From an archaeon (lineage in GTDB: Archaea > Iainarchaeota > Iainarchaeia > Iainarchaeales > 1-14-0-10-31-34): 61,160 nucleotides of DNA. Below are positions 41,583 through 43,886 of this stretch, piece by piece (within the stretch, counting starts at the first letter, position 1; every line of letters begins with the position of its first letter). The stretch covers positions 1 through 61,160 of the forward strand of contig JBDRFE010000029.1 of the NCBI GenBank assembly GCA_043819075.1. Direction: 5' to 3'. The notes under the pieces were generated by a model that saw nothing but the letters and a program-made list of their open reading frames with translations, was not told where the DNA came from and searched no databases. The translations under genes and the position numbers were made by a program.

Positions 41583-43886
41583 ATGGGAACAGTTTATGCT
41601 CTTGCTTCAGGAAAAGGCGGAGTGGGGAAAAGCCTGGCTTATGATGAATTTGTTAGCTTGTCTAATGGTTCTGTTATTCAAATAGGTCCATACATAGACA
41701 AACTGATTGAAGAAAGAAAAGAAGAAGTCAAACAATTAATCTGTAAGACGACTGAAGGAAAAGAAGAAATATTTGAAGTGCTGCAGCCTTCCACAGACTT
41801 AATTCTGGACACTGTTGAATTTAATGCTGAAAAACAGGAAATTATTTCTGAAATAAATCTTCCAGTTGCCTTGATGAGAAAGCCGGCTCCAAAAAAATTA
41901 ATTAAAGTTGAGTGTGCAGCAGGAAGCATTTCTGTTACTCCAGAGCACAAATTCATTGTGATGAGAAAAGGAAAGCTTGAAAAATTAAGGGCAGATGAAA
42001 TAAAAGAAAAAAAAGATTATCTTGTATTGCTGAACCAGTGCAATTCTTTTGAATTCCTTGAAGAAAAGATTTCAGCTGAAGCTGCTGAATTGTTAGGTTA
42101 TGTCACTGGAGACGGATACATGGAAGGCTATAAAATCCATGTTTTTTGTTCAGATAACAGCCTTCTTCCAAAAATAAGAGAAAACTTTATGGCTGTTTTT
42201 GGTTCATATAAAGAAAATGTTTCAAGAAACTTGCACAGAATTTCTTTTTTCAGAACAGGAACAGTGAAAGAATTGTATGAAAAATGTGGAGTAAAAATTT
42301 CAACTGCAGGAAGCAAGGAAGTCCCATCAGAATTATTTAACTCTTCAAATAATTCAGTGGCGGCTTTTTTGAGGGCGCTGTTTGACTGTGACGGTTCAGC
42401 CCACGTTTCCAGAAGGCAGATAGAATTTGATTCAAAAAGCAAAAAACTTGTTTTTCAGGTTGCATCCCTTTTAAGGACAAGATTTGGGATACTATCCCAG
42501 ATAAAGCCAACATTCAAAATTGCCAGAAACGGAAAAATGAAGGAAAAAGGAGAATACTGGAGAATGCATTTAACAGGAAACAACGCAGCAAAGTTTGCTG
42601 AATTTATCGGGTTCAACGATTCGGGAAAACAAGCAAGAATGATGGAACAGCTTAACAGCAGTAAAGCAGTAAACACAAACATTGACGTTTATCCTGTCGG
42701 AAAAATATTGAAACAAATCAGGCAAGAATCAAACATTTCTGCGCCAGCAATCGCAAAGACAATGAATTGTTCAAAGCAGATGATTTACGAATATGAATGG
42801 GAATATTACGCTTTATCAAAAGAAAAAGTAAAAAATTACATTAATGCATTTGAATCTCTTGGGGTTGAAAGCAAAATATTGAATTGGCTTAAATATTTAG
42901 TTAACTCTAATCTTGAATTCAGAAGAATTGAGAAAGCCAATGAATTTGAATACTATCATCCTTTTGTTTACGATTTTCAGGTTTCAGATAAAGGAGGCCA
43001 TTTTACTCATGCAACCGGAATAATAGTTTCAAATACAACTATTACAGCAAACCTTGGGATTGCATTGGCTCAAAAAGGAAAAAGAGTTTTATTGGTTGAC
43101 GCAGACATTGCAATGGCAAACTTAAGCCTGTTATTAGGAATGCAGTCTTCTCCGATTACTTTGCATGACGTTTTATTAGGCGAGAGTTCGTTGCAGGATG
43201 CAATCTATGACGGTCCAGGCGGAGTATCTTTTGTTCCATCTGGTTTAAGCTTTGAAAGCTATAGAAGAGTTGATTCAGCTAGATTAGCCGGAGTAATTGC
43301 TTCAGTTAAAGACGATTTTGACTACATTTTATTGGATGCGCCTGCAGGAATTGAAACAAACGTCATGTCAGCCTTAAGCGCTTCAGATAATGTTATTTTA
43401 ATTACAATGCCTATTTCTCCTTCAATTGCAGATGTATTAAAAACAAAAATTGTTGCTGAAAGGCTTGGAGCAAAGCCAATTGGCTTGATAGTTAATTTTG
43501 TGAGAGGCGAAAGAGGGGAAGTCATGCCAGAAGACATAATGAAAATGCTTGAACTGCCAATTTATGGTTTGGTTCCATACGACGAAGACATTAGAAAGTC
43601 TTTTATGCGCGAAAAAATAATGCCCACAATTTTATTTAAGCCAAACTCTAAAGGAGTTGAAGCAATAAACCTTGTGGCAGAAAAACTTACAGGAGTTTCA
43701 ACTGTAATCAGAATGAAAAAAAAGGGGCCCATAACAAGATTTTTAAACAAGTTGTTTTCTATCTTTAAAAGGAAACCAAAACAGGAAAAACAATTAAAGG
43801 AAAGAATACAGGAAAAAAAAGAAGAAGAAAGCTATGAGGATTTGCCTGAAATAAGCGAGGAAAGCATTGAAATAGGGCAAGAGTGA
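41583..43886 (+). CDS. minD: MinD/ParA-family ATPase, intein-containing
   Basis: [16 protein letters not shown] Walker A split by intein; [22 protein letters not shown], VPYD motifs; charged tail. Confidence 0.9.
   Translation: [767 protein letters not shown]
41631..43034 (+). mobile_element. Intein in MinD Walker A (468 aa) with LAGLIDADG and HTH-like insert
   Basis: SLAYDE start; VTPEH block B; LGYVTGDG and [15 protein letters not shown] block F; ends IIVSN before +1 Thr. Confidence 0.92.

What the first reader, a model, noticed from the sequence alone, without database searches (positions are those of the whole stretch)
41631..43034. Intein in the Walker A motif of a MinD-family ATPase
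Seen: GKGGVGK|S...IIVSN|TT; removal restores KGGVGKTT exactly. Ser1, no penultimate His, +1 Thr, two LAGLIDADG motifs, plus an XRE-like HTH ([27 protein letters not shown]). Established: inteins favour P-loops of replication and repair ATPases. I do not recall MinD as a catalogued host. Inference: rare host, and a possible splicing-dependent switch on a positioning ATPase.
Basis: partly seen in the sequence, partly recalled or inferred. Interest (0 to 1): 0.7.

Follow-up and report, generated by a model that had tools for sequence, protein, structure and literature searches.

The report
Mobile intein splitting archaeal MinD P-loop
The MinD positioning ATPase gene of a groundwater DPANN-type archaeon is interrupted, right after its ATP-binding lysine, by a real self-splicing, self-copying protein element (an intein); the host gene seems unreported for inteins, but the element is an ordinary member of a well-known group that targets ATP-binding loops.

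Summary
ORF 41583..43886 (+) encodes an archaeal MinD. A 468-residue insert (41631..43034) splits its deviant Walker A between K16 and T, as GKGGVGK|S…SN|TT.

- **Intein identity:** the insert passes the curated thresholds of the intein models. It has Ser1, block B TxxH, block F D/H, terminal Ser-Asn, Thr+1, two LAGLIDADG motifs and an XRE-type helix-turn-helix.
- **Host identity:** removing the insert in silico gives a protein above the archaeal MinD cut-off. It matches intein-free orthologues at the same syntenic locus.
- **Rarity and spread:** about 14–18 protein clusters in 5.8 billion carry this intein at this site, all DPANN-type. They form one intein clade but are scattered over the MinD tree (at least 5 gains or losses; AU p = 1e-52).
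- **Lateral transfer:** the intein is more conserved than its host between divergent MinDs.
- **Selection and decay:** every intein domain is under purifying selection (dN/dS 0.11–0.15). A mini-intein form and an endonuclease-decayed form exist.
- **Nearest relatives:** MCM-a and other GK|S/T P-loop inteins that share the same HTH.

It is a selfish homing intein in a new host gene. Nothing supports a regulatory switch. Novelty: new member of a known kind. Interest is low to moderate.

The parts
41583..43886 (+). minD precursor gene (767 codons plus stop): archaeal MinD interrupted by one intein
   Evidence: ORF list. TIGR01969 scores 253.6 bits as precursor and 276.5 bits after in-silico splicing, cut-off 201.75. 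Foldseek matches the extein to Pfu, Afu and Pho MinD (1g3q, 1hyq, 1ion) with target TM 0.80-0.86.
41583..41630 (+). N-extein, 16 residues, ending in the deviant Walker A GKGGVGK (41610..41630)
   Evidence: Translation. Identical to the intein-free orthologues L003 and L004.
41631..43034 (+). Intein, 468 residues, Ser1 to Asn468
   Evidence: PF14890 scores 38.4 against 35.8; TIGR01445 scores 28.5 against 24.5. Foldseek matches TliVMA 7qss (E = 2e-23, target TM 0.72), PI-PfuI 1dq3 and PI-PkoII 2cw7. Twelve homologues sit at the same site.
41631..42062 (+). N-terminal splicing (Hint) region. Block A is SLAYDEFV (41631..41654). Block B is VTPEH, with T103 and H106 in intein numbering (41934..41948).
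   Evidence: TIGR01445 covers intein residues 2-110. S17, T119 and H122 are invariant in alignments A1 and A2. The model predicts beta strands here. dN/dS is 0.15.
42063..42647 (+). LAGLIDADG homing-endonuclease domain. Motif 1 is LLGYVTGDG (42090..42116, catalytic D161). Motif 2 is [10 protein letters not shown] (42366..42395, catalytic D254).
   Evidence: PF14528 scores 67 bits. D177 is invariant and D270 nearly invariant in precursor numbering. pLDDT is 85-95. dN/dS is 0.11. Sequence hits to TliVMA and PhoVMA endonuclease cores.
42672..42905 (+). Conserved NTNID box followed by an XRE/lambda-repressor-type helix-turn-helix module. It lies between the endonuclease and the C-terminal splicing region.
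   Evidence: The profile of this segment (A3) hits only XRE-type chains in the PDB. PF01381 is hit in 8 of 12 members. Five helices are predicted at 373-441. The same module is seen in MCM-a, SRP54/FtsY, SMC and FlaI-type relatives. dN/dS is 0.15.
42918..43034 (+). C-terminal splicing region. Blocks F and G are [23 protein letters not shown] (42966..43034), with F-block Asp and His, penultimate Ser467 and Asn468.
   Evidence: D464, H473, S483 and N484 are invariant. PF14890 aligns through residue 468. The AF2 model is weak at 467-483.
43035..43883 (+). C-extein. It starts with Thr+1, the Walker A Thr (TTITANLG). It holds the MinD core and a C-terminal amphipathic helix [17 protein letters not shown] (43725..43775).
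   Evidence: The core is 84-87% identical to intein-free MinDs P0035-P0042. dN/dS is 0.09.
40526..41530 (+). Two conserved upstream genes co-oriented with minD: a DUF2226 protein (40526..41017) and a 150-aa protein (41078..41530). These are context and not part of the intein.
   Evidence: PF09987 scores 34.2 bits against 22. The same gene string occurs in intein-bearing and intein-free loci. A roadblock-like fold for the 150-aa protein is only weakly suggested.

Best explanation
This is a class 1 intein with a LAGLIDADG homing endonuclease and an accessory XRE-type DNA-binding module. I would name it MinD-a. It sits in the minD gene of a DPANN-type archaeon, between the Walker A lysine and threonine.

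**Splicing (inferred from conserved residues)**
- The gene is translated as a 767-residue precursor. Its P-loop is split, so the precursor cannot bind ATP.
- Ser1 makes an N-O acyl shift, helped by block B Thr and His.
- Thr+1, which is the Walker A Thr itself, attacks the resulting ester.
- Asn468 cyclises and releases the intein.
- An O-N shift restores GKGGVGKTT and yields a normal 299-residue MinD.

**Homing (inferred from domain conservation and distribution)**
- The free intein acts as a site-specific endonuclease.
- It cuts intein-free minD alleles at the highly conserved P-loop codons.
- Recombinational repair then copies the intein into the cut allele.
- The HTH probably lengthens the DNA contact.

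**Shown here:** the anatomy, the family, purifying selection on all domains, sporadic distribution, and conflict between the intein and host trees.

**Not shown:** actual splicing and actual DNA cleavage.
For: **Domain and threshold tests**
- The intein models pass their curated cut-offs.
- The spliced product passes TIGR01969.

**Fold**
- The intein part matches TliVMA, PI-PfuI and PI-PkoII. The extein matches archaeal MinD crystal structures.

**Conservation**
- All catalytic positions (S1, T/H of block B, D/H of block F, S-N, T+1, both LAGLIDADG Asp) are conserved in 12 homologues that are 39-82% identical.

**Empty site**
- Intein-free orthologues sit in the same NYN-DUF2226-150aa-minD-LSm string and carry exactly the joined flanks.

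**Selection (window against L001)**
- Hint-N dN/dS is 0.15.
- LAGLIDADG dN/dS is 0.11.
- HTH dN/dS is 0.15.
- Hint-C dN/dS is 0.15.
- MinD core dN/dS is 0.09.

**Mobility**
- MinD inteins form one clade (SH-aLRT 99).
- Intein-bearing exteins need 5-6 changes of state on a tree of 125-130 MinDs. Holding them as one clade is rejected at p-AU = 1.25e-52.
- P0003's intein is 76% identical to the window's, but its MinD core is only 59% identical.
- For P0009-P0012 the intein is 46-49% identical and the host core only 29-31%. Both host types are TIGR01969 MinDs.
- Synonymous divergence is higher in the intein than in the host against L001 (0.54 against 0.42; bootstrap p = 0.015).

**Homing-cycle stages**
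- P0158 carries a 186-residue mini-intein.
- P0155 has a partly deleted endonuclease.
- A relative's empty allele coexists with intein fragments in one groundwater run.
Against: - No experiment shows splicing or cleavage.
- The penultimate His that usually assists Asn cyclisation is absent.
- The AF2 model is poor at the C-terminal junction (pLDDT below 50 at 467-483).
- dS between the window and L001 is near saturation (about 1), so the dN/dS values are rough.
- Purifying selection on the endonuclease shows it is kept, not that it still cuts.
- The whole genome could not be searched, so a second, intein-free minD copy in this organism is not excluded (notice). None lies in the window.
Confidence: 0.85

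Rival explanations
1. Conditional-splicing switch. The intein has been co-opted so that MinD becomes active only when some signal triggers splicing. The signal could be temperature, pH, a partner protein, membrane or nucleotide.
For: - The insert sits in the one place where the precursor must be inactive.
- Conditional splicing is documented for other P-loop inteins, such as Pho RadA and Msm DnaB (cited in PMC8987985; listed).
- Oxygen-only nucleophiles (Ser1 and Thr+1) are, by general chemistry, less reactive than thiols. They could make splicing more dependent on conditions (inference).
- All Hint residues are strictly conserved.
Against: - Close orthologues with 84-87% identical exteins lack the intein.
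- At least 5 gains or losses are needed, so the host does not need it.
- The endonuclease is retained under selection. Known co-opted examples such as Pho RadA are mini-inteins (PMC8987985).
- There is no Cys at position 1 or +1, which rules out the known disulfide and redox mechanisms.
- Strict conservation of Hint residues is equally demanded of a parasite in an important gene.
Confidence: 0.07
2. Vertically inherited, immobile relic. The intein still splices but the endonuclease no longer homes. On this reading the patchy distribution comes only from repeated precise losses.
For: - Losses alone can give a patchy pattern.
- Decayed and mini forms exist.
- One homologue (P0007) has lost the second catalytic Asp, reading FDTGG.
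Against: - Intein identity exceeds host identity between divergent MinDs: 76% against 59%, and 46-49% against 29-31%.
- The intein and extein trees disagree on the placement of P0003.
- Endonuclease dN/dS is 0.11, and both catalytic Asp are intact in the window.
Confidence: 0.06
3. Splicing-dead insertion, assembly chimera or pseudogene, so that no functional MinD is made.
For: - The penultimate His is missing.
- The AF2 model has low confidence at the C-terminal junction.
Against: - The same arrangement was assembled independently in several samples and runs: L001, L002, L005, X1, X2 and X4.
- The reading frame is open over 767 codons.
- The extein is under strong purifying selection (dN/dS 0.09).
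- All splice residues are invariant.
- Penultimate Ser is known in working inteins (PMC7765530).
Confidence: 0.02

Closest known systems
MCM-a (InBase CDC21-a) P-loop inteins of archaeal MCM helicases
   Same: - They are the nearest non-MinD relatives by sequence (about 29-33% identity over most of the length).
- The insertion point is the same, after the Walker A Lys, with the Walker Ser/Thr as +1 (GDPGxAK|C...HN|S/T).
- The domain order is the same: Hint-N, LAGLIDADG, NTNID box, XRE-like HTH, Hint-C.
- The population pattern is the same: sporadic presence, intein/extein tree conflict and mini-intein derivatives (PMC10643990).
   Different: - The host is a SIMIBI-class MinD rather than an AAA+ helicase.
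- It has Ser1 instead of Cys1 and penultimate Ser instead of His.
- MinD inteins form their own clade on a long stem (0.85 changes per column, SH-aLRT 99), and no sister group is resolved.
TliVMA / PhoVMA inteins (7qss, 7qsu, 7qst), PI-PfuI (1dq3) and PI-PkoII (2cw7)
   Same: - These are the best solved-structure matches for the intein part, by sequence (E = 2.5e-10) and by fold (E = 2e-23, target TM 0.72).
- They are archaeal Hint plus LAGLIDADG inteins.
I did not test this.
   Different: - Sequence identity is only 15-20%.
- The hosts differ.
- I did not establish whether these structures contain an XRE-type module equivalent to residues 372-441.
Mja KlbA intein (2jmz) and related FlaI/VirB11-type ATPase inteins
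   Same: - They have a penultimate (G6) Ser in place of His (PMC7765530).
- Relatives found here end in ISN|C, VSN|C or VSN|T (P0226, P0268, P0275).
- There is a weak sequence hit to 2jmz (E = 1.6e-5).
   Different: - KlbA is a class 2 intein with Ala1, which skips the first acyl shift.
- The MinD intein has a Ser1 nucleophile and so fits class 1.
Archaeal MinD (TIGR01969; Pfu 1g3q, Afu 1hyq, Pho 1ion; Haloferax MinD4 and MinD2)
   Same: - The spliced product scores above the family cut-off.
- It matches the crystal structures at 37-43% identity.
- It has a C-terminal amphipathic helix. From memory, not checked in the paper text here, H. volcanii MinD4 has a comparable C-terminal membrane-targeting helix.
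   Different: - None of the characterised archaeal MinDs carries an intein.
- The function in DPANN archaea is unknown. In H. volcanii, MinD proteins position motility and chemosensory machinery rather than the division ring (abstracts of 10.1101/2020.04.03.021790 and 10.1101/2024.08.01.606218).

Membership tests
Intein (class 1 protein-splicing element) | Hint-fold splicing domain with blocks A, B, F and G flanking any inserted domain | tested here: met
   PF14890 scores 38.4 bits against 35.8, and TIGR01445 scores 28.5 against 24.5. Foldseek matches TliVMA, PI-PfuI and PI-PkoII.
Intein (class 1 protein-splicing element) | Nucleophile (Cys/Ser/Thr) as first intein residue | tested here: met
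   Ser1 (S17 of the precursor) is invariant in 12 of 12 full-length homologues and in 4 fragments.
Intein (class 1 protein-splicing element) | Block B Thr-x-x-His | tested here: met
   VTPEH has T119 and H122 invariant.
Intein (class 1 protein-splicing element) | C-terminal Asn followed by a Cys/Ser/Thr +1 extein residue | tested here: met
   N484|T485 is invariant.
Intein (class 1 protein-splicing element) | Penultimate His (usual, not obligatory) | tested here: not met
   Ser483 is invariant in the family. Penultimate Ser is documented in Mja KlbA (PMC7765530). It also occurs in related inteins P0226, P0268 and P0275.
Intein (class 1 protein-splicing element) | In-frame insert whose removal restores a conserved host motif, with insert-free orthologues | tested here: met
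   The joined flanks equal L003 and L004 at the same syntenic locus. The TIGR01969 score rises from 253.6 to 276.5 bits.
Intein (class 1 protein-splicing element) | Autocatalytic excision and extein ligation | not testable with these tools
   This needs expression and a gel or mass-spectrometry assay.
Class 2 / class 3 inteins | Ala1 (class 2), or the Trp-Cys-Thr triplet with a block F Cys nucleophile (class 3) | tested here: not met
   Position 1 is Ser. Block F position 4 is Asp (VYDFQ), not Cys.
LAGLIDADG homing endonuclease (double-motif, intein-borne) | Two LAGLIDADG helices, each ending in a catalytic acidic residue | tested here: met
   The motifs are LLGYVTGDG and [10 protein letters not shown]. 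D177 is invariant and D270 is conserved in 11 of 12. PF14528 scores 67 bits.
LAGLIDADG homing endonuclease (double-motif, intein-borne) | Site-specific cleavage of the intein-free allele | not testable with these tools
   There is only indirect support: sporadic distribution, tree conflict and dN/dS of 0.11.
Archaeal MinD (TIGR01969) | Whole-protein score above the curated cut-off, a deviant Walker A KGGxGK[ST] and a MinD fold | tested here: met
   The spliced product scores 276.5 bits against 201.75. The spliced Walker A reads GKGGVGKT. Target TM is 0.80-0.86 to 1g3q, 1hyq and 1ion.
XRE / lambda-repressor-type HTH | Sequence match to HTH_3-type models and a five-helix fold | tested here: inconclusive
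   The window sequence is below Pfam's cut-off (16.5 bits against 23). Even so, 8 of 12 homologues hit PF01381 at E <= 0.01. The family profile hits only XRE-type PDB chains, best E = 3.5e-5. Five confident helices are predicted. The fold family is likely, but DNA binding is untested.
Conditional protein-splicing switch | Splicing depends on a physiological signal, and the intein is fixed in the lineage, often as a mini-intein | tested here: not met
   Signal dependence cannot be tested here. Fixation is not met, because intein-free alleles are the nearest relatives. No junction Cys is available for redox control.

The most novel reading that the evidence does not exclude
One family of HTH-bearing LAGLIDADG inteins moves between non-homologous P-loop NTPases by recognising the shared GK[ST] codons.

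- **Hosts seen here:** MCM, SMC, TIP49, FlaI/VirB11, and the SIMIBI proteins SRP54, FtsY and MinD.
- **In tiny DPANN cells:** the MinD copy has additionally become useful. It would work either as a slow oxygen-ester splicing timer that delays MinD activation, or through its excised XRE-HTH moiety acting as a DNA-binding factor.
- **If true:** MinD positioning in these archaea would be gated post-translationally by a mobile element.
Probability: 0.06. Interest if true: 0.6.

Novelty: new member of a known kind. Interest (0 to 1): 0.3.

Why it matters
- **New host class:** it adds a cytoskeletal/positioning ATPase of the SIMIBI class to the list of intein hosts. That list is dominated by replication, repair and nucleotide-metabolism enzymes (Novikova et al. 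2016, PMC4760082).
- **Family range:** the same GK|S/T P-loop intein family also occupies MCM, SMC, SRP54/FtsY, TIP49 and secretion ATPases.
- **Model system:** the MinD set offers a small natural system for the homing cycle in uncultured DPANN archaea. It holds full-length, decayed, mini and empty alleles in one conserved locus.
- **Engineering:** it provides a thiol-free (Ser1/Thr+1, penultimate Ser) intein and a natural 186-residue mini-intein that may interest protein engineers.
- **Annotation:** public records call these 720-770-residue proteins simply 'cell division ATPase MinD'.
- **Limit:** it does not change how inteins or MinD are understood.

Tried and rejected
- **Literature.** Searches for intein plus MinD, septum site-determining, DPANN, SRP54 or P-loop found no paper naming MinD as a host. 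Word searches inside four reviews and surveys gave no MinD mention. The supplement of Novikova 2016 is not held. The 2014 JBC review is not held.
- **Whole genome.** Other inteins and a second minD in this organism could be checked only inside the window, where there are none.
- **Mini-inteins.** A dedicated search found only one cluster, P0158, on a 1.4-kb contig with a truncated gene.
- **Sister group.** The quick tree does not resolve a sister group for the MinD inteins. I therefore do not claim descent from MCM-a or SRP54 inteins specifically.
- **The 150-aa upstream protein.** The AF2 model is poor (pLDDT 55). The profile search found nothing. The top Foldseek hits are LAMTOR/roadblock chains, but at E >= 0.08. 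This is inconclusive.
- **The free-standing LAGLIDADG gene at 44253..44978.** It is not a close relative of the intein's endonuclease (pairwise E = 0.001 over 43 residues). It was not picked up by the intein HMM.
- **Read laying.** It gave no intein-free joint for this strain itself. The only joint belongs to a relative, in run X5.
- **Chimera, pseudogene or chance match.** These are rejected for the reasons given under the rival explanations.
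Full report
**1. What is in the sequence**

ORF 41583..43886 on the + strand encodes 767 residues. It begins [16 protein letters not shown]. It continues with 468 residues, from SLAYDEFV to ATGIIVSN (41631..43034), and resumes with [30 protein letters not shown].

The motifs are LLGYVTGDG at 42090..42116 and [10 protein letters not shown] at 42366..42395.

- The insert passes the curated thresholds of two intein models. PF14890 scores 38.4 bits against 35.8, and TIGR01445 scores 28.5 against 24.5.
- It also passes the LAGLIDADG_3 model at 67 bits against 22.5.
- Joining the flanks gives a 299-residue protein. It scores 276.5 bits on TIGR01969 (archaeal MinD, cut-off 201.75), against 253.6 bits for the precursor.
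- The window holds no other intein and no second MinD-like gene.

**2. Structure**

I ran an AlphaFold2 model of the precursor on a 12-sequence alignment. Mean pLDDT is 75.9. It is 85-95 in the endonuclease core and below 50 at 467-483, next to the C-terminal junction.

- The intein part matches TliVMA (7qss, E = 2e-23, target TM 0.72), PI-PfuI (1dq3), PI-PkoII (2cw7) and PhoVMA (7qst).
- The extein part matches the MinD crystal structures of Pyrococcus furiosus (1g3q), Archaeoglobus fulgidus (1hyq) and P. horikoshii (1ion), at 37-43% identity.
- By sequence alone, the intein also finds the VMA inteins, PI-PkoII, Mja KlbA (2jmz), PI-PfuI and a CDC21 mini-intein (6rpp).

**3. The helix-turn-helix**

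The window's own segment is below Pfam's cut-offs (HTH_3 16.5 bits, HTH_11 18 bits).

- At family level, 8 of 12 homologues hit PF01381 and 5 hit PF13560 at E <= 0.01.
- A profile of the 84-residue segment (A3) hits only XRE/lambda-repressor-type chains in the PDB. These are 28tn at 3.5e-5, then CylR2, MBF1/EDF1, PezA, HipB, C.BclI and an ICEBs1 Xre regulator.
- The model shows five helices at 373-441 with pLDDT about 86-92.
- The same box (NTNIDV.P ... LK..R...GLSQ ... Y..E.G.R.PS) is visible in the MCM-a, SRP54/FtsY, SMC and FlaI-type relatives. It is therefore a trait of a larger intein family and not a MinD peculiarity.
- Its role as an extra DNA-contact module for the endonuclease is my inference.

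**4. The family**

A word-indexed search of 5.8 billion proteins with the whole precursor found 14 clusters of MinD carrying this intein at this site. They are 39-82% identical. Where a source names them, they are 'archaeon', Candidatus Micrarchaeota or Candidatus Diapherotrites, annotated only as 'cell division ATPase MinD'.

- An exhaustive HMMER search with the intein alone against 1.84 billion cluster representatives added four more MinD-borne pieces: P0155, P0158, P0159 and P0161.
- In the 12 full-length members, these positions are invariant: S17, T119, H122, D177, D464, H473, S483, N484 and T485. D270 is conserved in 11 of 12.
- The non-canonical junction is therefore a fixed property of a working family and not decay.
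- By the review PMC7765530, Ser1 and Thr+1 belong to the class 1 repertoire, and a Ser at the penultimate (G6) position occurs in Mja KlbA.
- From my own memory, not tested here, the fast-splicing Npu DnaE intein also ends in Ser-Asn.

**5. It is absent from the closest relatives**

The spliced MinD finds intein-free proteins of 292-309 residues at 84-87% identity (P0035-P0042).

- Two of them (L003 and L004) and two intein-bearing relatives (L001 and L005) lie in the same gene string as the window. That string is MetRS ... IF5A(-) - NYN - DUF2226 - 149/150-aa protein - MinD - LSm.
- The empty sites encode the same residues as the window's joined flanks and differ only at synonymous positions.
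- In one groundwater run (X5), a contig of a relative joins 41631 to 43041 with five other letters between. That reads GK|TSI, an empty allele. Fragments identical to the window's intein are present in the same run.

**6. Mobility**

In a tree of intein segments, the 14 MinD inteins form one clade (SH-aLRT 99). They sit inside a group that holds MCM-a, other MCM, SRP54/FtsY, TIP49 and FlaI-type inteins. The sister group is unresolved.

- On a tree of 130 MinD exteins, the intein needs 6 changes of state, and 5 are forced by well-supported branches.
- With the seven intein-bearing exteins of the window's MinD type against 118 intein-free ones, the tree that keeps them together is 275 log-likelihood units worse (p-AU = 1.25e-52).
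- The intein of P0003 groups with the window's (SH-aLRT 98), while its extein lies in a different well-supported MinD clade.

| Homologue | Intein identity to window | MinD core identity to window |
|---|---|---|
| P0002 | 78% | 92% |
| P0003 | 76% | 59% |
| P0009-P0012 | 46-49% | 29-31% |

Both host types pass TIGR01969. An element that normally evolves faster than its host is here better conserved than the host, so it has moved between divergent minD genes.

Against L001, synonymous differences are also higher in the intein (0.54) than in the MinD core (0.42). The bootstrap 95% interval of the difference is 0.011-0.228. That hints at separate acquisitions even inside the closest pair.

**7. 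Selection and the homing cycle**

Window against L001, by the Nei-Gojobori method:

| Region | dN/dS |
|---|---|
| N-terminal Hint | 0.15 |
| Endonuclease | 0.11 |
| HTH | 0.15 |
| C-terminal Hint | 0.15 |
| MinD core | 0.09 |

These values are. dS is close to 1, so they are rough, but every domain is clearly constrained.

- P0155 has lost the first half of the endonuclease.
- P0158 carries a 186-residue mini-intein with no endonuclease or HTH. It keeps Ser1, TPEH, VYDFQ..GGHF and SN|T. A dedicated search found no further mini forms.
- Empty, full, decaying and mini alleles together are the stages of the homing cycle described for inteins generally (PMC7765530, PMC2814812) and for MCM-a in Haloferacales (PMC10643990).

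**8. Nearest relatives outside MinD**

The best non-MinD hits are about 30% identical inteins at the MCM-a site (GDPGxAK|C...HN|S/T-x-LLQY; P0156, P0157, P0160, P0167, P0168 and others). Related inteins sit at the equivalent point of other NTPases:

- SRP54 (P0015, GAGK|C..HN|TTT)
- FtsY (P0236)
- SMC (P0232 and P0251, which by register begin with Ser1)
- TIP49 (P0018)
- FlaI/VirB11-type ATPases (P0226 with Ala1 and ISN|C; P0268; P0275 with VSN|T)

The MinD intein is thus one more member of the GK|S/T P-loop intein assemblage that Novikova et al. (PMC4760082) describe for DnaB, MCM and RFC.

**9. Mechanism**

*Shown:*
- the domain anatomy
- conservation of all catalytic positions
- the restored Walker A
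- the existence of empty alleles
- purifying selection
- lateral spread

*Inferred:*
- The precursor cannot bind ATP, because K16 and T17 of GKGGVGKT are 468 residues apart.
- Ser1 forms an ester, and Thr+1 (the Walker A Thr) takes over the N-extein.
- Asn468 cyclises, and an O-N shift restores the P-loop.
- The released intein then cuts the conserved P-loop codons of empty minD alleles and is copied in during repair, with the HTH extending the DNA contact.

**10. The 'switch' idea**

Nothing found here favours it.

- The intein is dispensable for very close relatives.
- It is gained and lost repeatedly.
- It keeps its endonuclease.
- It has no junction cysteine for redox control.

A slow or condition-dependent oxygen-ester splicing reaction cannot be excluded without an experiment. 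I give it about 7%.

**11. Novelty**

No paper in the searchable library names MinD or ParA-type ATPases as intein hosts. InBase could not be consulted.

Earlier notes of this scan had already met MinD inteins in at least four other genomes and reached the same verdict. My own tests agree with them:

- The nearest relative is MCM-a.
- The closest structures are the VMA inteins.
- The neighbours are conserved, with DUF2226 confirmed and the roadblock fold only weakly suggested.

It is a new host for a known kind of element.

**12. Limits**

- There are no experiments.
- The trees were made with the quick search.
- dS is near saturation.
- Organism names rest on the sources' labels for homologues and on groundwater metagenome runs.

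Noticed in passing
window 44170..45030: A relic 5' part of tRNA-Ala(GGC) lies at about 44207..44230. It matches the 5' end of the intact tRNA-Ala of relative L001. It is followed by a free-standing HTH plus LAGLIDADG gene (44253..44978, PF14528 56 bits), whose 3' end overlaps a complete tRNA-Ala (44958..45030). In L001 the LSm gene is followed by tRNA-Ala after 57 nt with no such gene. The window therefore carries an insertion of about 850 bp.
   Followed up: partly
window 40069..44109, and L001, L003, L004, L005: The gene string NYN - DUF2226 - 149/150-aa protein - MinD - LSm is conserved in intein-bearing and intein-free relatives alike. The 150-aa protein has an alpha-beta-beta-alpha-beta-beta-beta-alpha pattern. 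Its best but non-significant Foldseek hits are roadblock/LAMTOR chains (pLDDT 55, E >= 0.08).
   Followed up: partly
window 43725..43883: The MinD C-terminus has an amphipathic segment [17 protein letters not shown], predicted helical. It looks like a membrane-targeting helix. A long acidic tail follows, seen only in the window and P0002. The tail evolves almost neutrally (dN/dS 0.70).
   Followed up: no
P0015, P0236, P0232, P0251, P0018, P0226, P0268, P0275 (proteins): Related HTH-bearing LAGLIDADG inteins sit at the Walker A GK|S/T point of SRP54, FtsY, SMC, TIP49 and one FlaI/VirB11-like secretion ATPase (P0275), and at an NTGHDG| site of two others (P0226, P0268). The SMC copies begin with Ser1 by register. 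Several of the secretion-ATPase copies have penultimate Ser. I found no paper on SRP54 as an intein host.
   Followed up: partly
P0158 (257 aa, 1.4-kb contig) and P0155 (596 aa): P0158 carries a natural 186-residue MinD mini-intein with no endonuclease or HTH. P0155 is a form with a partly deleted endonuclease. Both keep Ser1, TxxH and SN|T.
   Followed up: yes
L005 9516..10196 (-), L004 5126..5911 (-), L003 5198..6595 (+): The space after LSm and around tRNA-Ala varies between relatives. It holds different unannotated ORFs, and a further LAGLIDADG-like gene lies near tRNA-Val in L005. This is possibly a hotspot for free-standing homing endonucleases.
   Followed up: no
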